DNA of 64,000 nt from positions 1 to 64,000 of IMG/VR virus record IMGVR_UViG_3300020576_002141; one strand, 5' to 3'. The stretch comes from a virus. Its lineage: Duplodnaviria; Caudoviricetes. Below, piece by piece: positions 27,472-39,890 of this stretch. A program made the position numbers and the translations under genes. Numbering within the stretch: the first letter of the stretch is position 1; every line of letters starts with the position of its first letter. The notes beneath the pieces were generated by a model. It worked only from the letters and a program-made list of their open reading frames with translations. It did no database searches and had not been told where the DNA came from.

Positions 27472-27504
27472 AAAACACCAGAGAGAAATCTCTGGTGTTT
27501 TTTT
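27472..27504. terminator. Bidirectional intrinsic terminator
   Basis: AAAACACCAGAGA-GAAA-TCTCTGGTGTTTT between convergent genes. Confidence 0.9.
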
Positions 27505-29830
27505 ATTTGTTGGCTATTCTTCCAAACATATCTCTTTCGTAACCAAAATCTGGAGTTGTTGAAAGGTGGGTTGGATAAGACATATTAGAAATATTAGTAG
27601 TTGTGGTAGGAGCATTTACTACTGTTGTAGATTCTTTATCTGTTGCTCTGTTAGCTGCTTCTAATAAAGTTGATGCTTCGTATTTTCTATCTTGCATACC
27701 ACTAGTAGGAAATATTTTAATAGGCTCTTGCCTTGTATTGATTGGTGCTGAAGAAGGAGGGTTGATCTTTACTGGAGTTGGATTCAATGCTTTATCCAGT
27801 CTTTCTGGAATCCTGTCTTTTATGTTCTTGTTACCAAAATTTTGTAATTCCGAAACGAGATCCAATAATCCAGGGTTTCTCATCATAATCAATGTTCTTT
27901 TGTTTACATCGTTTACAATACCAGAAACATCCGATCTTAACTTATTAACTTCGCCTATATCCACTCCAGCCTGCTTCCCGTTTTGATCCACAACAGTTTC
28001 AACCACGCCAACCGGAGTAGCTACCGATTTTATGCTATACTTACTAAAGAATTTTATATACTCAACCAAAGTATCTTTCATTGATGTATATTCGTCCTCT
28101 TGTTTTTTCTTCAAAGAATCTTTAATAGTATCTTCGACAGCAGTCTTTATGTCTGGATGATCTTTCTCCATAACAGCCATTCTGGACTTACGATCATTGA
28201 TTTCCAGCTGTGTTTTGTAGTATTCCTTTAGAGATTGATTATTGTTTAGAGTATCCTTTTCTATCTTAGACATTCTTGGATCATTTTCTATGAGGCTGGC
28301 ATAGGTTTCTTCGAAATTTTCTGGTGTCAAATTCTCAACGGAATGAAGTTTTTCTTCTAAACCAGATACTAAACTGGTGTTAGAATTTTTAAACTCTTGG
28401 TACTTCTTTGTTTTTTCTCCTATAGAAATACGTGAAGCTTCTTCTTCAGCTCTGAGGGTTGCGTAATCGGCCTTGGTCTTATCGCCTTCTGATCCAGTAG
28501 ATGCTGCGGTTTTAGCGAAAGACTCTGCTATTGCAGCTACATTAGAAGCACTGTCCACCACTCTTTTCATTTCTTCGGATATAGTTTTGCTTTCTCTAAT
28601 AATATCTCTTGTTACTATAACACCATCCGTTACTATGGATGCCATTGTTCCCAAACCAGGAATCAGAGAGAAAATACCAGATAGAACTTCTAATCCAGCT
28701 CCTGTATAATCTCCTTCGTTAGCCCGTTGCATGGCGAAAGCTGCACCTATACCAAGTCCCATGACAGGAATAGCTTTTCCTACTGTCTTACCAGCTGCTT
28801 TGCCAGCAAATTTTCCTGCCTTAGCAGCACCCTTCAAAGTTCCTTCTGCCATTTCCTTCGAAATGCTTTTTATCCAAGATTTTGAAGTAACTTCGGCCGC
28901 TTCCTTTGCTGCTTCTTTAGCCACTACTTCCGTGGTTTCTGCGGTAACTTTCTTAGGAATCATACTCTCTATCATAGAATATGGTTTCTTTATTCCGCCT
29001 GGTTGAAGTAAGCTTGTGGCTAATTTAGCTCCCCTTAGTCCTTCGTCACTATAACCACTTGTATAATCGTTTATATGGTTGAAAGCTGACAAACCAAGAA
29101 ACCCTGGTATCAAAATATCAAATATGCTACGTACTCCACTTTCTACCGCTTTTTCATTATTGGTTTTTCTTCCTCTGCGTCTATCTGGTTTCCTTTCACT
29201 CAATAAGTCTTCCATTAGGGCTTTGTAGTCTTCTTTACCTTCTCTGTCTCTTAGAGGATTAGAAATAAGAGACTCAGACAGAACCTTCATATATTGAGCT
29301 ATTGCTTCGATATTATGATCGATTCTGGTTAGAGGAGCTATATCGGTTGCGGATGTAGTTAGACCAGAGCCGCTTAGATTAACCACCACAGGAGCTTGCG
29401 TTTTTGTATTCTTCTGAACTGTTCTTATACCTCTGGTTGTATATCCTAGATTTACTATTTTTTCGTTTATATCCTTGATACCCAAATAGATTTCTCTAAC
29501 CAGAGCCTTATCTGATTTTAGAGTTTCCTTAAGGTTCTTCGGTATCTTTTCTACGCTTTCTTGTACTAGTTTTTCGTATTTTTTATTCAGAGCTTTGAGA
29601 TTTTTGTTCAAAGAAGATTGTAGCTTCTTCTCGTTCTTTAGATTATTTGTATACTTTTCATGGAACTTAGCTAAGAGTTTGCCGTGCTTAGAAGTAGTAC
29701 TGAATATTTCTCCTATTTTAGGAGTCATTTTATCCAGAGTATTTTTCTGGGAATCTATTTTTTCAGAACTTTCAGATACGGTTTTATCTGTATCTGTTAC
29801 CTTCTCCAACACTTTCTTTAGAATGTCCAT
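27503..29830 (-). CDS. Baseplate hub / tail length determinant (gp29-like tape measure)
   Basis: Long helical protein with Gly/Ala-rich GKAIPVMGLGIG...GDYTGAGLE...IPGLGT segment; follows gp26-gp51. Confidence 0.65.
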   Translation of the reverse strand: MDILKKVLEKVTDTDKTVSESSEKIDSQKNTLDKMTPKIGEIFSTTSKHGKLLAKFHEKYTNNLKNEKKLQSSLNKNLKALNKKYEKLVQESVEKIPKNLKETLKSDKALVREIYLGIKDINEKIVNLGYTTRGIRTVQKNTKTQAPVVVNLSGSGLTTSATDIAPLTRIDHNIEAIAQYMKVLSESLISNPLRDREGKEDYKALMEDLLSERKPDRRRGRKTNNEKAVESGVRSIFDILIPGFLGLSAFNHINDYTSGYSDEGLRGAKLATSLLQPGGIKKPYSMIESMIPKKVTAETTEVVAKEAAKEAAEVTSKSWIKSISKEMAEGTLKGAAKAGKFAGKAAGKTVGKAIPVMGLGIGAAFAMQRANEGDYTGAGLEVLSGIFSLIPGLGTMASIVTDGVIVTRDIIRESKTISEEMKRVVDSASNVAAIAESFAKTAASTGSEGDKTKADYATLRAEEEASRISIGEKTKKYQEFKNSNTSLVSGLEEKLHSVENLTPENFEETYASLIENDPRMSKIEKDTLNNNQSLKEYYKTQLEINDRKSRMAVMEKDHPDIKTAVEDTIKDSLKKKQEDEYTSMKDTLVEYIKFFSKYSIKSVATPVGVVETVVDQNGKQAGVDIGEVNKLRSDVSGIVNDVNKRTLIMMRNPGLLDLVSELQNFGNKNIKDRIPERLDKALNPTPVKINPPSSAPINTRQEPIKIFPTSGMQDRKYEASTLLEAANRATDKESTTVVNAPTTTTNISNMSYPTHLSTTPDFGYERDMFGRIANK

Positions 29831-35080: not shown

Positions 35081-36326
35081 CGCAGTAACTAATGTTTCTT
35101 CCCCCGGTCAAGTTATTATAGATAAGGTTCAACTTATCTCGAATAACGGATTTATTATAGACTTGCGCCCATTTATGGTAGATATTACCATAACAGAAAG
35201 CATCAATGATATCTTTGTTTCCGGATTATTGAGTTTGACAGAATCGCTGAACTTGATAAGATTTGCTCCTATCATAGGCAACGAATATGTAAATATAGTT
35301 TTTTATACGCCTGGTAGACGAAAAATCGATTACACTTTTTATGTATCTAGAGTATCGAAGAGAATCTTAGAAAACAAAACAACAACTTACTACCTAGAGC
35401 TTTCCTCTATTGGGGCTATAACATCCACTTATAAAGCCATTTCTACATCATTTTCTAATATGACTTATAGTGAGATGGCTCAATCAATATACTCGGATTT
35501 CTTGAAACAAGAAAATACGAAGTTTTCGTATTATGACACAAAATATAAGAAAAATTATACGTGCGGTTATAAGCTACCGGCTGAAATATTAGCTGACCTT
35601 GCCTCGTTTGCTGCTGATACAGAAGGAAACAAAAATTACGTATTTTTTGAAACATTGAATAATGATTATATCTTTCGACCTCTTTTTGAAATCAACACCC
35701 CTTCTGTATTTCAATACTCTAACTTCTTTGCTGGATTAGCCGGCATCAACACATTGCTGGAATATACGAGAATACGAGAACTAGAAGTTTATGATACCGG
35801 TGATATCAAAAAGAATATTGCGGGTGGTGTGTTTGGATCTTGGTATTTGTCTGTGGACACCACGTACAAGGAAATAACCGAAGTCAATAAATCATATCAT
35901 GATTTGTTTTCTGAAGTAGGTCACGTAAATCAATTTCCTATTTTTCCAAAAGCTAATCAGTTTATTTCGTCGGCTCCTGGTGACATAGACGTTTTTCCAA
36001 AAGCATCTTATAATTATGACAATATCAAAGACAACGAGAATTATGGCGAAGTGATTTCTGGCAGAAACTTTCAGCTGGTTTCTAGTAACTCCTATTCTTT
36101 GGGTATAAACGTTCTAGGAGACTCCGATAGGCATCCTGGTGATAAGGTTACTGTCTTTATACAGTCTCCTCAGGCTACGGATATAGATGACGAAAAGGAT
36201 GATCCATATCTATCAGGATATTACACCATAAGCAAAATAAAACACCTAATAAGACCAGAACAATATCAAACAAATATCCTATTGATCAAAGATTCTAACT
36301 GGAAACCAGTAAAGGAAGAAAATTAA
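35073..36326 (+). CDS. Baseplate hub protein (gp27/late-control-D-like)
   Basis: ITESI...SGLLSL, YVFFETL, LSGYYTISKIKH; lies between gp53 and gp5. Confidence 0.6.
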   Translation: MDNAVTNVSSPGQVIIDKVQLISNNGFIIDLRPFMVDITITESINDIFVSGLLSLTESLNLIRFAPIIGNEYVNIVFYTPGRRKIDYTFYVSRVSKRILENKTTTYYLELSSIGAITSTYKAISTSFSNMTYSEMAQSIYSDFLKQENTKFSYYDTKYKKNYTCGYKLPAEILADLASFAADTEGNKNYVFFETLNNDYIFRPLFEINTPSVFQYSNFFAGLAGINTLLEYTRIRELEVYDTGDIKKNIAGGVFGSWYLSVDTTYKEITEVNKSYHDLFSEVGHVNQFPIFPKANQFISSAPGDIDVFPKASYNYDNIKDNENYGEVISGRNFQLVSSNSYSLGINVLGDSDRHPGDKVTVFIQSPQATDIDDEKDDPYLSGYYTISKIKHLIRPEQYQTNILLIKDSNWKPVKEEN

Positions 36327-37318
36327 TGTCTCCTGATTTTATATGGTGGCAGGGTATTGTAGAGGACGTAAACGACCCCCTAAAGATAGGAAGATGTCGA
36401 GTACGTATTATTGGATGTCATTCTTCAAATAAATCCGATGTTCCGACTTCATCATTGCCTTGGTCTCAACCAATACAGCCCATAACAAGCGCAGCCATCA
36501 GTGGTATAGGACTATCCCCCACCGGTATTGTTCAGGGATCGTGGGTATTTGGATTTTTTCAGGATGGAGAAAGAAAACAAATACCCATTATATTTGGTAC
36601 GTTAGCTGGTATTCCGCAGAAAGAACCATTGCCTTCCAAAGGATTTAATGATCCTGATGGACTATTTCCTAGAGAAAGTTATGTCGGAGAGTCTGATGTC
36701 AATAGGTTGGCTAGAAACGAAAACATAGAAAACACGGTTGTATCTACAAAGAAACAAAACGAAGAAACTGATATCGTATCTGCTCTAGGTGAGGAATGGT
36801 GGAAAGAACCATCTACTCCATATAACGCAGAATATCCAAAGAACAAAGTATTAGAAACGGAAAGCGGGCACATCGAAGAGTTCGATGATACTCCCGGATT
36901 TGAAAGAATTCACCGATACCATAAGTCTGGAACTTTTGAGGAAATTCATCCCGATGGGTCTAAGGTAACGAAGGTTATAGGCTCTTCATATTCTATAGTA
37001 GCTGGTAATAACAAAGTACTAATAAAAACAAATAACAGCACAAATATAGAAAAAGATGGTAATATAAAAATAGGTGAAAATTGTAATGTCGAGATTGAAG
37101 GAAATGTTAACCTCTTTATCAAAGGAAACATTATTTTAGAATGCGACGGGGATGTTAATCAACAGATAGCAGGAACTTATACAGTAGTTTCGAATGGAAA
37201 TATGACATTACTGGCACCAAGAATTGACTTGAATCCAAACGGCTTCTCATCAAGCGACGTAAATGATCCTATAAGCCCATCTATACCACAATACGACTCT
37301 AACGGTAATCCTCAATAA
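36326..37318 (+). CDS. gp5: Baseplate central spike, gp5-like, without lysozyme domain
   Basis: WWQGIVEDVNDPLKIGRCRVR OB fold; YPKNKVLETESGH, HKSGTFEEIHPDG; C-terminal beta-helix repeats. Confidence 0.9.
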   Translation: MSPDFIWWQGIVEDVNDPLKIGRCRVRIIGCHSSNKSDVPTSSLPWSQPIQPITSAAISGIGLSPTGIVQGSWVFGFFQDGERKQIPIIFGTLAGIPQKEPLPSKGFNDPDGLFPRESYVGESDVNRLARNENIENTVVSTKKQNEETDIVSALGEEWWKEPSTPYNAEYPKNKVLETESGHIEEFDDTPGFERIHRYHKSGTFEEIHPDGSKVTKVIGSSYSIVAGNNKVLIKTNNSTNIEKDGNIKIGENCNVEIEGNVNLFIKGNIILECDGDVNQQIAGTYTVVSNGNMTLLAPRIDLNPNGFSSSDVNDPISPSIPQYDSNGNPQ

Positions 37319-38316
37319 TGTCAATAGATATTACACAACTATCTTCTGAAGTGTCTGGACTTATACTCGCTGCGGGTGTGAGCGGAAACCTTATAGCATT
37401 GGTTCAAGGGGAACAAGGCGAACAAGGCGATCAAGGCTTACAGGGAAATGATGGTATAGGAATAACATCTGGCGGGCTATCTGGGCAGTTTCTTATCAAA
37501 GCCGGAACTGCTGATTATGAGACACAATGGGCATCTTTGACTATCACTTCGGGGCTTATCGGTGGCGTTTATGTCGATACTCCTTCTAATGGGCAGGCAT
37601 TGGTTTGGGATGACGCAAACCAATATTTCACTAATCGAGATGTTAGTGGAAGCTCGTCCTCTTCTTCCGCAGCATCCACGTCTATTACCGTAACGCAAGC
37701 AGCTCACGGATTAACAACCGGACAAGTAGTATATTACAACGGATCTATCTGGAGAAAAGCTCAGGCTGATTCTACATCGACATTAGGAATCGGTATAGTA
37801 CAATACTTAACCCCGAATACGTTTAACGTAGTATTCTCTGGGCAGGTATCTGGATTTTCTGGATTATCAGCTGGCAACTATTATTTCGTATCTGATAGTT
37901 TGAGCGGCGGGCTAACTTACAACGAACCAACTATAAGCAACCCACTTGTATTTGCGGTAAGTACCACAGCCGGAATTGTCATTCCTTGGAGACCAGTTGA
38001 TAATAGCGCATTTCAATCAGATTATGTTAGCGTTACTGCTGGAGTTTTCACGGTATCTCAGCTAGTAGATTATATTTACTGCGATTGCTCTTTAGGAGGA
38101 ATAACTGCTTCTCTCCTTTCGGTAGCAGATATTCCCGGGAAAGCGTATACTTTCAAAAAGCTGGATTCTTCTTCTGTCAATAACATAAAAATACAACCAG
38201 ATGGCTCAGAGCTATTAGAATCTGGATCGAACTATACACTAACAGGCCAGTATAGCTCTATAACAATAGGAAACAACGGCGTTCAGTGGTATATCCATAA
38301 TATTTACAGAGCATGA
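37318..38316 (+). CDS. Virion structural/fibre protein (short collagen, 'HGL' domain, C-terminal KKxD domain)
   Basis: GEQGEQGDQGLQGNDG; shares domains with the ORFs at 51300 and 56237. Confidence 0.7.
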   Translation: MSIDITQLSSEVSGLILAAGVSGNLIALVQGEQGEQGDQGLQGNDGIGITSGGLSGQFLIKAGTADYETQWASLTITSGLIGGVYVDTPSNGQALVWDDANQYFTNRDVSGSSSSSSAASTSITVTQAAHGLTTGQVVYYNGSIWRKAQADSTSTLGIGIVQYLTPNTFNVVFSGQVSGFSGLSAGNYYFVSDSLSGGLTYNEPTISNPLVFAVSTTAGIVIPWRPVDNSAFQSDYVSVTAGVFTVSQLVDYIYCDCSLGGITASLLSVADIPGKAYTFKKLDSSSVNNIKIQPDGSELLESGSNYTLTGQYSSITIGNNGVQWYIHNIYRA

Positions 38317-38978
38317 CAACTACTCCATTATCAACGTTTCAATTTACTGATTTCGTTACAGGAGAACCGAAGACCTTCTCCTATAATGACCGAGGTGGCA
38401 GCACCCTCAGTATGTTTACGAATAACAGGATAAACACGTCTTTGGGAGTTGCTCCGGTATATCTAGGAACGATAAATCATTATAATACGGTGTCAGATAT
38501 GAGGCGCGGAGTATGGACTTCTATTTCTCTGGGAGCCACAATCAGGAGAACGGCTCCGGGTGGACCAATAGGAGAACTTACTTATGGAAGCTATCGGATT
38601 AGTATTCTTGATGGTTTACCGACAGGACTATCCTATCGCGTAGAAAATGATGAAGTTGTGTTTTATGGCAATGATATTCAGTCTATTCCACCAGAAATCC
38701 AACAAGTTATAGATAATCCAACAACCGATAATTATCCAGTAAATATGGTTATAAATAATCTAAGGTGCTATTTCAGAATACGAGCGGAAAGAATATCTTT
38801 TCCTGATACATTATATAGTACATGGCTATACTATTTCATAGTCAGGACCAACTGGTCAACTATACGTGATGCGTTTATAGGAAATATGCCCTGTAATAAC
38901 TTTTCGTTCGATCAAATACATACAGTTTCTAATCAAGAGTTTATAGATACTCAAAAAGCCGACGGGTACTACTTATAG
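38313..38978 (+). CDS. Hypothetical protein
   Basis: 221-aa ORF coupled to the upstream gene. Confidence 0.7.
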   Translation: MTTTPLSTFQFTDFVTGEPKTFSYNDRGGSTLSMFTNNRINTSLGVAPVYLGTINHYNTVSDMRRGVWTSISLGATIRRTAPGGPIGELTYGSYRISILDGLPTGLSYRVENDEVVFYGNDIQSIPPEIQQVIDNPTTDNYPVNMVINNLRCYFRIRAERISFPDTLYSTWLYYFIVRTNWSTIRDAFIGNMPCNNFSFDQIHTVSNQEFIDTQKADGYYL

Positions 38979-38988
38979 AAAGGGCAAT

Positions 38989-39594
38989 ATGTTTGTAAGC
39001 TTACTATTACTATTATCTGATACATTTTCTATATTTAAGAATATTGAAGTTTATTTGGGTATTGTAGCAGGAATGCTCACAGCTGGTGCGACCATCTGGA
39101 AGTTTGTAGTGATACCGGCTAGAAGAAATCTAAAGAAAATATCGGACGCTATTTCGTCTATTGGAGAGATTTCTTCTAGTATTAAACCAAACGGTGGTTC
39201 TTCTATAATGGATAGGCTATCCAGAATAGAGAAAACTATACTTTATTCTGAATCTAGACACAAGCTTCTCACATCCGCTGTTAATGTTGCTATGTTCGAA
39301 ACCGACAGTCAAGGAACTTGCCTTTGGGTAGCTCCCTCTTGGACGGAAATAACTGGGATAGATAACGAAGACGCTCATGAAAATGGTTGGCTGAACTCTA
39401 TACATCCCGATGAAAGAGAAGAAGTCTACAAACAATGGCAAGCTGCGGTAGAGCAAAAACGAGAATTTAGAATGACCTATAACATAGTTAATATTAAAAC
39501 AAACGATATTATTCATGTCAGGGGGTTAGCAAGGTCTCTTCGGGACCACAAAGGTAATGTTATAGGATTCGTAGGACTAATAAAGAGGATTTAA
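38989..39594 (+). CDS. Membrane-anchored PAS-domain protein
   Basis: Hydrophobic N-terminus, PNGGSSIMD motif, then a PAS pattern FETDSQG...WTEITG...GWLNSIHPDERE...RDHKGNVIGFVG. Confidence 0.85.
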   Translation: MFVSLLLLLSDTFSIFKNIEVYLGIVAGMLTAGATIWKFVVIPARRNLKKISDAISSIGEISSSIKPNGGSSIMDRLSRIEKTILYSESRHKLLTSAVNVAMFETDSQGTCLWVAPSWTEITGIDNEDAHENGWLNSIHPDEREEVYKQWQAAVEQKREFRMTYNIVNIKTNDIIHVRGLARSLRDHKGNVIGFVGLIKRI

Positions 39595-39596
39595 TA

Positions 39597-39890
39597 ATGC
39601 CATGCATGGGTGCTGCTAGGTTGGGTGATTGGTGTTCTGGCCACGGTTGCTTTCCACCAAGACAAAACAATGAAGGATCTCCTACCGTGTTTGTCAATGG
39701 AAGAGGATGGCACAGGAAAGGCGACAACTGGCAGAGACATTCGTGCGGCGACAACAGACACTCTGGCACTCTAGCAGAAGGCTCCAGCACAGTCTTTATA
39801 AACAGCACACCGGCTGGAAGATTTGGTGATCCAGTTTCTTGCGGATCTGCTGTCATTACCGCTAGCGGAAATGTGATTTGTGGAGGTTAG
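39597..39890 (+). CDS. PAAR spike-tip protein (gp5.4-like)
   Basis: ARLGDWCSGHGCFPP, GSPTVFVNG, HSC...H, GDPVSCG. Confidence 0.93.
   Translation: MPCMGAARLGDWCSGHGCFPPRQNNEGSPTVFVNGRGWHRKGDNWQRHSCGDNRHSGTLAEGSSTVFINSTPAGRFGDPVSCGSAVITASGNVICGG

What the first reader, a model, noticed from the sequence alone, without database searches (positions are those of the whole stretch)
38989..39594. Membrane-anchored PAS sensor-like protein embedded in the late baseplate operon
Seen: hydrophobic helices (VYLGIVAGMLTAGATIWKFVVI), a coiled segment with PNGGSSIMD, then a complete PAS-type domain (...GWLNSIHPDERE...RDHKGNVIG) and no kinase or output domain. Established: PAS domains sense ligands, redox or light, and PNGGSS-type membrane proteins occur in lysis cassettes of other phages (my recollection). 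Inference: a late-expressed sensor-coupled holin/antiholin-like lysis timer, or a dominant-negative decoy for host PAS histidine kinases. I know of no characterised phage system of this kind.
Basis: partly seen in the sequence, partly recalled or inferred. Interest (0 to 1): 0.78.

Follow-up and report, generated by a model that had tools for sequence, protein, structure and literature searches.

The report
PAS sensor fused to lysis-cassette membrane module
An uncultured freshwater T4-like phage has a 201-residue membrane protein that joins a small module, found beside the cell-bursting genes of many other phages, to a cytoplasmic PAS sensor domain, so the phage may time host lysis by an internal host signal; no experiment has tested this.

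Summary
ORF 38989-39594 (+) encodes 201 aa: one N-terminal membrane helix, a helix-turn-helix around KPNGGSSIMDRLSRIE, and a true PAS domain (Pfam PAS_3 9.8e-13; structural Z 14.6). There is no output domain.

The N-terminal part is not a generic anchor. It belongs to a large phage family (phrog_9869, function unknown) that mostly occurs as stand-alone 63-116 aa proteins. These sit next to endolysin and holin genes in uncultured and cultured phages. One member is Actinomyces phage Av-1 HolA, annotated as enhancing the holin HolB.

The PAS-fused form is itself a family: 87 of 118 representatives are 180-260 aa, and 79 of 88 aligned sequences match PAS_3. In other phages it lies beside an amidase endolysin or Rz-like spanins. 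Charge bias (140 of 143 members) places the motif and PAS domain in the cytoplasm.

In this T4-like lineage the gene is always wedged between gp5 and PAAR/gp25/gp6, and no lysis gene is adjacent.

Best reading (about 0.55): a PAS-gated accessory of the holin system that tunes lysis timing. The ligand, the partner and the lysis role are all untested. The scan has flagged the same kind of protein before on other DNA. I found no paper describing it.

The parts
38980..38984 (+). Ribosome-binding site AAGGG, 4 nt before the ATG. The upstream gene stops at 38976-38978.
   Evidence: Sequence read. Similar AAAGG/AAGGA sites precede the orthologues.
38989..39594 (+). Whole coding sequence, 201 aa plus stop: TM-PNGG-PAS protein.
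   Evidence: Orthologues with conserved synteny.
38989..39045 (+). Residues 1-19: weakly hydrophobic N-terminal segment, predicted to lie outside the cytoplasm or at the membrane surface.
   Evidence: Kyte-Doolittle 19-residue mean 1.5. Hydrophobic character is kept in the orthologues.
39052..39120 (+). Residues 22-44: the transmembrane helix (YLGIVAGMLTAGATIWKFVVI core), followed by PARRNLKK.
   Evidence: Hydropathy maximum about 1.7. Part of one long helix (residues 2-65) in the model. In 140 of 143 family members K+R counts are higher after the helix than before it, which implies N-out/C-in.
39121..39183 (+). Residues 45-65: cytoplasmic continuation of the helix (linker).
   Evidence: Model (pLDDT 93-98).
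39184..39231 (+). Residues 66-81: family signature KPNGGSSIMDRLSRIE. PNGGSS forms the turn between the two helices.
   Evidence: G70 and D75 are invariant, and N68, G69 and S72 are at least 90% conserved, across 88 relatives. Loop 66-72 in the model. The segment matches phrog_9869.
39205..39282 (+). Residues 73-98: second helix, which runs into the PAS core as its N-terminal cap helix.
   Evidence: Model. It aligns with the A' helix of LOV2 (4hhd, model residues 74-201, Z 14.5).
39283..39591 (+). Residues 99-201: PAS core (five-stranded sheet plus helices), containing GWLNSIHPDERE. No domain follows it.
   Evidence: Pfam PAS_3/PAS. PDB sequence match 3mr0 at 4.6e-05. Foldseek and VIA-align matches.
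39597..39890 (+). Downstream neighbour: PAAR spike-tip protein (T4 gp5.4 type), starting 2 nt after the PAS gene stop. This is context, not shown to be a functional partner.
   Evidence: Pfam PAAR_motif 6.5e-16 and phrog_281 8.4e-33. The same adjacency is seen in L001-L006, L010 and L143.
36326..38978 (+). Upstream context: a gp5-type hub protein without a lysozyme domain (36326-37318), a 332-aa collagen-repeat fibre-like protein (37318-38316) and a 221-aa protein of unknown family (38313-38978).
   Evidence: Gp5_OB 1.5e-32 and phrog_430. The 221-aa protein matches no family.

Best explanation
The gene encodes a bitopic inner-membrane protein. Its short N-terminus faces out, and one membrane helix spans the bilayer. 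In the cytoplasm lie a helix-turn-helix hairpin, whose turn is the invariant PNGGSS motif, and a C-terminal PAS sensor domain.

The membrane-plus-hairpin module is the same module that many phages encode as a stand-alone 63-116 aa protein inside their lysis cassettes. Av-1 HolA is one member. I propose that this module works with the phage's hole-forming holin and helps set the moment of lysis. I further propose that the fused PAS domain makes this action depend on a cytoplasmic cue, such as a small ligand, a cofactor's redox state or a partner protein. PAS domains usually signal through their N-terminal cap helix, and here that helix runs straight into the PNGG hairpin. A change in the PAS state could therefore alter the packing or oligomerisation of the membrane module.

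Shown: the domain architecture, the PAS fold, homology of the N-terminal module to lysis-cassette proteins, the family-wide PAS fusion, and the lysis-gene neighbours of relatives. Inferred: the topology (positive-inside rule), late expression (operon position), any effect on lysis, the direction of that effect (helper or inhibitor), and the signal sensed.
For: 1. Architecture and fold are established.

2. A profile of the N-terminal 95 residues, scored against 1.84 billion proteins, found 118 cluster representatives. Of these, 87 are 180-260 aa and 32 are short. In an alignment of the window protein with those 87, 79 of 88 sequences match PAS_3.

3. A back-translated motif pattern hit more than 120 IMG/VR contigs. 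Most of the hits are 63-80 aa stand-alone proteins in 31 clusters.

4. A profile built only from 24 short forms scores the window protein at 40.0 bits. The best of 2000 shuffled sequences scored 11.4. phrog_9869 matches both the short and the PAS forms.

5. Lysis neighbours of the short forms: a CHAP lysin and a small adjacent 59-60 aa hydrophobic protein that I read as a two-helix holin (L057/L038); Phage_r1t_holin (1.3e-23) plus Amidase_2 (2e-13) (L027). In 78 of 120 loci, homologues of three lysin-like families lie within four genes (one of the three, the 168-aa family, is unverified); 88 of 120 have a lysin-like or a holin-like homologue. The PHROG tallies of neighbours show several endolysin families and one holin family.

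6. Cultured members:
- Av-1 has holA-holB-lysA, and the record notes that HolA 'appears to enhance holin activity of HolB'. HolA scores 31.3 bits against the family profile.
- Streptomyces phage mu1/6 has endolysin-holin-gp52.
- In Thermobifida phage P1312 the gene overlaps the start of the amidase gene.
- In Arthrobacter phage Sonali, gp22 precedes the endolysin and holin.
- In Arthrobacter phage LiSara, the member is annotated as a holin.

7. PAS-fused relatives beside lysis genes:
- P0024 lies 4 nt upstream of an Amidase_2 endolysin (phrog_1493, 1.4e-22).
- P0007 lies just after an Rz-like spanin (1.4e-18).
- Weaker cases are L159 (Rz-like, 1.7e-4) and L172 (holin phrog_3427, 1.7e-4).

8. 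Topology: mean K+R is 3.44 after the helix and 0.27 before it, and 140 of 143 members follow this pattern.

9. An experimentally studied analogue exists. LysF1b of F1-cluster mycobacteriophages has one TMD, N-out/C-in topology and a helical cytoplasmic tail, and is required for efficient, properly timed lysis (PMC13056207).
Against: In this window and its four or five orthologous lineages the gene lies in a baseplate operon (gp5 ... PAAR, gp25, gp6). No endolysin, holin or spanin was found nearby. None was found in the 75-kb record either, although that record is only 42% complete.

In many tailed phages the lysis cassette follows the tail-fibre genes. Being near lysis genes and being near tail genes are therefore confounded in part of the survey. 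The 120 surveyed loci are dominated by two clusters (43 and 25 loci), so the count of 78 of 120 overstates the number of independent cases.

The short forms were retrieved with a motif pattern derived from this family, which makes the 40-bit score partly circular. The match to phrog_9869 is weak for the window protein itself (1.9e-4).

The only functional statement for any member is a GenBank note on Av-1 HolA. I could not read the original paper. Some PAS-form contexts show no lysis gene (P0005, P0006). The PAS ligand is unknown.
Confidence: 0.55

Rival explanations
1. It is a tail-tip or infection-stage protein. In this reading it is made with the baseplate and works with the gp5/PAAR spike, for example as an assembly factor at the membrane, or as a protein carried in or near the spike and inserted into the host membrane at infection. 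The PAS-like domain would then act as a protein-binding module.
For: The gene lies immediately upstream of PAAR, with a 2-3 nt gap, in every T4-like lineage found. These lineages range from 96% down to 32% identity: window, L001-L006, L010, L143. The surrounding genes are all baseplate genes. Several relatives follow tail-fibre or minor-tail genes.
Against: The N-terminal module is homologous to proteins placed between or beside endolysin and holin genes. In phage mu1/6 that gene lies at the end of the genome record, after the endolysin and holin genes. PAS-form relatives abut an amidase or a spanin rather than spike genes. The closest cultured T4-like phages, HTVC008M and Melnitz, build baseplates without this gene, and in them the gp5-gp25 slot holds other small accessory genes. 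Nothing suggests that a membrane helix with N-out/C-in charge bias is a virion component.
Confidence: 0.15
2. It is a membrane-anchored sensor or decoy unrelated to lysis. In this reading the TM-PNGG part is only an anchor plus a signalling hairpin. The PAS domain would bind a host PAS protein or metabolite to reprogramme host signalling, exclude superinfecting phage or counter a defence system.
For: The protein is a lone PAS domain with no output domain. PAS domains commonly heterodimerise (established knowledge). Some family contexts show no recognisable lysis gene. Phages also encode similar-sized proteins annotated as GAF-domain proteins, seen among weak fold matches.
Against: The nearly invariant PNGGxSxxDxxxRIE hairpin is kept in stand-alone proteins that have no sensor domain at all, so the module has a function of its own. 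The genomic home of that module is the lysis cassette. The PAS domain is not a close copy of any host kinase domain (21% identity to the best structural match). Expression from a late structural operon suits a late function better than host takeover.
Confidence: 0.12
3. It is itself the holin, that is, the hole-former rather than an accessory. Its single membrane helix would oligomerise into lesions, and the PAS domain would hold it inactive until a cytoplasmic signal arrives.
For: No T4-type holin or any other holin was recognised in the 75-kb record (with the caveat that the control genomes did not match either). To my knowledge, the closest cultured relatives, pelagiphage-like T4-type phages, have no identified holin; I did not check this. 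One-TMD holin classes exist, namely T4 T and phiKZ (PMC13056207). LiSara's family member is annotated as a holin.
Against: In most lysis cassettes the short module co-occurs with a separate protein that is either a confirmed holin family (Phage_r1t_holin in L027) or, in the largest cluster, a small hydrophobic protein I read as holin-like. The annotation for Av-1 HolA is 'enhances HolB', not a hole-former. The record is only 42% complete, so a holin may lie elsewhere.
Confidence: 0.13

Closest known systems
Actinomyces phage Av-1 HolA (holA-holB-lysA cassette; Delisle et al. 2006, cited in PMC9025707; GenBank NC_009643 note)
   Same: It is a member of the same N-terminal family: 31.3 bits against the family profile, spanning the membrane helix to the KPNHGGSS motif. 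It has a single N-terminal TM helix and a helical cytoplasmic part. It is encoded beside a two-TMD holin and the endolysin and is annotated as enhancing holin activity.
   Different: HolA is 101 aa and has no PAS domain. Its motif is a variant (PNHGGSS, and RIE is lost). Its host is Gram-positive and the phage is phi29-like. The pairwise profile comparison with only three query sequences was weak (hhalign probability 45.6%). I could not read the original paper.
LysF1b of F1-cluster mycobacteriophages Girr and NormanBulbieJr (PMC13056207)
   Same: It works in a similar way as far as is known. It has one N-terminal TMD, N-out/C-in topology and an extended helical cytoplasmic domain. It is encoded after a two-TMD holin-like protein and is genetically required for efficient, correctly timed lysis.
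   Different: No sequence homology was shown here. LysF1b has no sensor domain.
T4 lysis inhibition (holin T with antiholins RI and RIII; PMC11413866)
   Same: The concept is the same: a T4-like phage adjusts lysis timing in response to a signal through a protein that acts on the holin. As in T4, the lysis genes are scattered among late genes rather than grouped in a cassette.
   Different: T4 RI senses a periplasmic signal of superinfection and binds the periplasmic domain of T. Here the sensor is a cytoplasmic PAS domain. There is no sequence relation, and Phage_holin_T was not found in the record (uninformative because the control did not match).
Bacterial PAS_3 sensor domains of histidine kinases and diguanylate cyclases (for example PDB 3mr0 and 3h9w)
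   Same: Same fold and Pfam family, including the GW-N-IHPDDR-type signature.
   Different: Those domains feed a kinase or cyclase in the same polypeptide. Here no output domain follows, and the domain is fused to a phage lysis-type membrane module.

Membership tests
PAS fold (Pfam PAS_3 PF08447 / PAS PF00989) | Profile match above the curated gathering score. | tested here: met
   PAS_3 scores 48.6 bits (cut-off 25.6) and PAS scores 45.8 bits (cut-off 22.6).
PAS fold (Pfam PAS_3 PF08447 / PAS PF00989) | Five-stranded antiparallel sheet flanked by helices, superposable on solved PAS domains. | tested here: met
   Model pLDDT 95.7. 3h9w matches at Z 14.6, rmsd 2.0 A over 102 residues, and dozens of PAS/LOV chains score Z 12-14.5. 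Foldseek gives 1.6e-07 to 3mr0.
PAS fold (Pfam PAS_3 PF08447 / PAS PF00989) | A bound cofactor or ligand that defines the signal. | not testable with these tools
   By eye, the LOV-type NCRFLQ motif is absent from the sequence. The pocket was not analysed.
TM-PNGG lysis-cassette module (phrog_9869; Av-1 HolA, mu1/6 gp52) | Single N-terminal membrane helix with N-out/C-in charge bias. | tested here: met
   Hydropathy 1.72. K+R counts are 1 before the helix and 4 after it. The family follows this pattern in 140 of 143 members. This is a prediction only.
TM-PNGG lysis-cassette module (phrog_9869; Av-1 HolA, mu1/6 gp52) | Signature PNGGxSxxDxxxRIE about 25-30 residues after the helix. | tested here: met
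   KPNGGSSIMDRLSRIE lies at residues 66-81.
TM-PNGG lysis-cassette module (phrog_9869; Av-1 HolA, mu1/6 gp52) | Profile similarity to the stand-alone members. | tested here: met
   phrog_9869 matches at 1.9e-4 to 6.7e-4, which is weak. A profile of 24 short forms gives 40.0 bits, against a shuffle maximum of 11.4; this is partly circular because the short forms were selected by the motif.
TM-PNGG lysis-cassette module (phrog_9869; Av-1 HolA, mu1/6 gp52) | Encoded beside endolysin, holin or spanin genes. | tested here: not met
   In this window the neighbours are gp5, a fibre-like protein, an unknown protein, PAAR, gp25 and gp6. The feature is met in relatives.
Holin (functional class) | Forms lethal membrane lesions that release or activate the endolysin; can be triggered early by energy poisons. 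| not testable with these tools
   This needs expression and lysis assays.
DUF2746 (PF10874) / LysF1b-type proteins | Match to the Pfam profile. | tested here: not met
   The N-terminal 95 residues match no Pfam family at E up to 10. PF10874 has no match in the own record at E up to 10, nor in five cultured phages with PNGG genes at E up to 1.
Sensor histidine kinase or other PAS-coupled enzyme | HisKA/HATPase_c, GGDEF, EAL or another output domain in the same protein. | tested here: not met
   Only PAS families were found. The protein ends at residue 201, and the next gene is in another frame.
T4 holin T | Match to Phage_holin_T (PF11031). | tested here: inconclusive
   No match in the 75-kb record, but the family did not match in any control genome, and the record is 42% complete.

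The most novel reading that the evidence does not exclude
This would be a cytoplasmic counterpart of lysis inhibition. Phages of many lineages, including this freshwater T4-like clade, would read an internal host signal (redox or energy state, or a metabolite) through a PAS domain hard-wired to a holin-accessory membrane hairpin, and advance or delay lysis accordingly. Lysis timing would then be a sensed decision, not only a protein-accumulation clock.
Probability: 0.35. Interest if true: 0.8.

Novelty: new variant of a known kind. Interest (0 to 1): 0.62.

Why it matters
Lysis timing sets burst size and phage fitness. In the textbook systems it is fixed by holin accumulation. The only well-studied signal input is T4-type lysis inhibition, which reads a periplasmic cue.

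A family of at least about 90 sequence clusters joins a lysis-cassette membrane module to a cytoplasmic PAS sensor. This would be a ready-made, testable case of phages coupling lysis to the host's internal state. It would also give a first functional handle on the very common PNGG small membrane proteins (phrog_9869), which are currently annotated as hypothetical or loosely as 'holin'.

For uncultured aquatic T4-like phages, whose lysis genes are, as far as I know, largely unidentified, it marks a candidate lysis gene. PAS-gated membrane modules could also serve as switchable lysis parts in laboratory strains.

Tried and rejected
- tblastn of the whole protein against 50,697 phage records found nothing.
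- The word-indexed protein search found only three close orthologues, and no short forms when restricted to the N-terminus.
- The ESM Atlas gave no usable hit.
- The first fold, made with four sequences, was poor in the N-terminal half (pLDDT 65.6). It was replaced by the 88-sequence model.
- The Av-1 lysis paper (PMC1392916) is not held.
- I read the 168-aa protein next to the second-largest short-form cluster as an M15-type peptidase by eye. Neither Pfam nor a PDB sequence search confirmed this. It is only shown to be linked to PNGG genes in several phages, so that cluster's 'lysin' is unverified.
- Amidase_2, Phage_lysozyme and Phage_holin_T were not found in the own record. This is uninformative at 42% completeness.
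- DUF2746 membership was rejected.
- The TATAAATA late-promoter-like motif 239 nt upstream is no commoner in the window than chance predicts (7 found, 7.75 expected). It is only partly conserved in the orthologues, so I make no promoter claim.
- Literature searches for PNGGSS, for PAS plus baseplate, and for PAS plus lysis cassette or holin found nothing relevant.
Full report
**What is there**

The window is part of a 75,383-base IMG/VR virus record estimated to be 42% complete. The region around the finding is a T4-type baseplate block:
- On the minus strand: a tape-measure/hub protein with a peptidase domain, a baseplate hub subunit (phrog_150), a tail-tube-like protein, gp2 and gp4.
- On the plus strand: gp48, gp53, a 417-aa tail protein (phrog_350), and a 330-aa gp5 with an OB domain but no lysozyme domain.
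- Then a 332-aa collagen-repeat fibre-like protein, a 221-aa protein of no known family, and the ORF in question.
- Then a PAAR protein, gp25, gp6, a gp7-like protein and gp8.

By gp6 similarity the nearest cultured phages are Pelagibacter phages HTVC008M and Mosig and Methylophilales phage Melnitz, at about 40% identity. Those phages lack this gene. In Melnitz the slot between gp5 and gp25 holds other small accessory genes.

**The observation**

ORF 38989-39594 (+) encodes 201 aa and has its own AAGGG ribosome-binding site.

Pfam finds PAS_3 (9.8e-13), PAS (7.2e-12) and PAS_4, each above its gathering score, over residues 96-201, and nothing else. With an alignment of 88 relatives AlphaFold2 gives mean pLDDT 95.7. 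The model has:
- one long helix, residues 2-65, which includes the membrane helix;
- a loop at residues 66-72, which is exactly PNGGSS;
- a second helix, residues 73-98;
- a PAS core, residues 99-201.

The core superposes on solved PAS and LOV domains at Z 12-14.6. The best match is 3h9w, rmsd 2.0 A over 102 residues (Foldseek results). The best sequence match in the PDB is the PAS domain of a Burkholderia sensor kinase (3mr0, 4.6e-05).

The protein stops right after the last PAS strand. The PAAR gene begins 2 nt later in another frame, so there is no output domain.

**Conservation**

Orthologues at 96, 80 and 54% identity were found by the word-indexed search. More distant ones, at 37% (P0004) and 32% (P0012), were found by the exhaustive search. 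All lie in the same place, directly upstream of a PAAR gene and, where the contig reaches far enough, within the same T4-like baseplate block. The contigs come mainly from aquatic metagenomes. The gene is therefore a stable feature of this phage clade.

**The N-terminal part is a family of its own**

A profile of residues 1-95 from three orthologues was scored against 1.84 billion representative proteins. It returned 118 hits at E <= 0.001. Of these, 87 are 180-260 aa and 32 are short. When the window protein and the 87 long hits were aligned, 79 of the 88 sequences matched PAS_3. The architecture TM - PNGG - PAS is thus a family with roughly 90 clusters at 50% identity.

Across this alignment G70, D75 and W134 are invariant, and N68, G69 and S72 are at least 90% conserved.

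I back-translated PNGG-x-S-xx-D-xxx-RIE into a degenerate DNA pattern. By my own estimate it should occur by chance about twice in IMG/VR. It also hit 38 stretches in bacterial genomes and MAGs from Actinomycetota, Acidobacteriota, Planctomycetota, Pseudomonadota, Bdellovibrionota and others.

In the viral contigs the motif sits overwhelmingly in stand-alone proteins of 63-116 aa. Each has one N-terminal membrane helix, a basic stretch, the motif and a short helical tail. They fall into 31 clusters at 60% identity, and only six loci are PAS-fused. These short proteins match phrog_9869, a 98-position family of unknown function, at up to 5e-12. The window protein matches the same family weakly, at 1.9e-4. 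A profile built only from 24 short representatives scores the window protein at 40.0 bits over residues 17-89, while the best of 2000 shuffled sequences scored 11.4. That score is partly circular, because the short forms were retrieved through the motif. The exhaustive profile search found short forms without using the pattern.

**Where the module lives**

- The largest short-form cluster (43 loci) has the order: tail fibre, a CHAP-domain protein (8.7e-07), a 59-60 aa hydrophobic protein that I read by eye as a two-helix holin, and then the PNGG gene.
- Another cluster has: tail fibre, the PNGG gene, Phage_r1t_holin (1.3e-23) and Amidase_2 (2e-13).
- Iterated searches seeded with these neighbours found lysin-like homologues within four genes in 78 of 120 loci, and holin-like ones in 54.
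- These counts are inflated by two dominant clusters.
- One of the three 'lysin' families, a 168-aa protein, could not be confirmed as an enzyme.
- PHROG tallies over the neighbours of the 31 cluster representatives list several endolysin families, a holin family and tail-fibre families.

Cultured phages give the clearest picture:
- Streptomyces phage mu1/6 has endolysin gp50, holin gp51 and then gp52, which carries HPNSGSSLRDAVNRIE.
- In Thermobifida phage P1312 the gene overlaps the start of the amidase gene.
- In Arthrobacter phage Sonali, gp22 sits just before the endolysin and holin.
- The Arthrobacter phage LiSara member is annotated as a holin.
- Actinomyces phage Av-1 has holA-holB-lysA.
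- Av-1 HolA carries KPNHGGSS and scores 31.3 bits against the family profile.
- The Av-1 record says HolA has one TM region and 'appears to enhance holin activity of HolB'.

**PAS-fused relatives also sit by lysis genes**

- P0024 (34% identical) lies 4 nt upstream of an Amidase_2 endolysin (phrog_1493, 1.4e-22).
- P0007 (33% identical) follows an Rz-like spanin (phrog_1152, 1.4e-18).
- Weaker cases are L159 (Rz-like, 1.7e-4) and L172 (holin phrog_3427, 1.7e-4).
- Other contexts are uninformative (P0005, P0006, P0011).

**Topology**

Across 143 members the 15 residues after the membrane helix carry on average 3.44 Lys+Arg, and the 15 residues before it carry 0.27. In 140 of 143 members the count is higher after the helix. 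By the positive-inside rule the N-terminus is outside, and the PNGG hairpin and PAS domain are cytoplasmic. This rules out a spanin-like periplasmic role. It matches the topology reported for LysF1b, a one-TMD, N-out/C-in protein that F1-cluster mycobacteriophages need for efficient, correctly timed lysis (PMC13056207).

**Most likely mechanism**

I read the protein as an accessory of the holin system whose action is gated by a PAS domain. The PAS cap helix (residues 73-98) is continuous with the PNGG turn and packs back towards the helix that leaves the membrane. A ligand- or redox-driven change in the PAS domain could therefore alter the packing or oligomerisation of the membrane module, and so the triggering of the holin.

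This is inference. No partner, no ligand and no phenotype is known. T4-like phages scatter their lysis genes among late genes; in T4 the holin gene t follows tail-fibre gene 38 (my own knowledge, not checked here). A baseplate-operon location therefore does not by itself argue against a lysis role. It does leave room for a spike-related function, which the invariant adjacency to PAAR keeps alive as the main rival. The decoy idea has no specific support.

**Comparison with what is known**

- The closest homologue with any functional note is Av-1 HolA.
- The closest studied analogue is LysF1b.
- The closest concept is T4 lysis inhibition.
I tested that and found no match.
- BFVD holds full-length relatives only as 'PAS domain [uncultured Caudovirales phage]'.
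- Full-text searches found no paper linking a PAS domain to a phage lysis protein.

The scan itself has reported the same kind of protein in other genomes, with the same tentative reading. This window therefore adds a T4-like, baseplate-embedded instance rather than a first sighting.

**Verdict**

I class the protein as a new variant (a PAS fusion) of a known but poorly studied kind of lysis-associated membrane protein. Confidence in a lysis-timing role is about 0.55, and interest is 0.62.

Noticed in passing
window 36326-37318 (+): The gp5-type hub protein is only 330 aa. It has an OB domain and a C-terminal beta-helix-like part but no lysozyme domain (Gp5_OB 1.5e-32; phrog_430 matched in two pieces). 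A peptidase/endolysin-like domain sits instead in the 774-aa tape-measure/hub protein at 27503-29830 (-) (phrog_34252, 2.3e-19).
   Followed up: partly
window 37318-38316 (+): A 332-aa protein directly after gp5 carries a short collagen-like run (GEQGEQGDQGLQGNDG) and weak tail-fibre PHROG matches. It and the following 221-aa protein of no known family (38313-38978) are conserved with the PAS gene in all orthologous contigs.
   Followed up: partly
window 38750-38757 (+): A TATAAATA motif (T4 late-promoter type) lies 239 nt upstream of the PAS gene, inside the 221-aa gene. L001 and L005 have CATAAATA at -238. The motif count in the window is at chance level, so this may simply be conserved coding sequence.
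   Followed up: partly
BFVD matches to model m1a0ba8ce8704 (ranks 28, 36, 39): Phage proteins of 205-236 aa annotated as GAF-domain proteins appear as weak full-length fold matches. I did not examine their N-termini. They may be a parallel class of small phage proteins carrying a different sensor domain.
   Followed up: no
L054:2289-2792 (+) and relatives (Glutamicibacter phage BIM BV-113 gene 00610; Actinoplanes phage phiAsp2 Pas65/66): A 168-aa protein family with no Pfam or PDB sequence match is linked to PNGG genes in 32 IMG/VR loci and in cultured actinophages. It is a candidate unrecognised lysin catalytic domain.
   Followed up: partly
L138 (Thermobifida phage P1312 gene 040): The PNGG-family gene of this cultured phage is deposited as 'sensory protein kinase CreC'. 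This looks like an annotation artefact for a 147-aa membrane protein that overlaps the amidase gene.
   Followed up: no
window 39560-39856 (-): A 98-aa antisense ORF overlaps the PAAR gene and the end of the PAS gene. It matches nothing and is most likely spurious.
   Followed up: no
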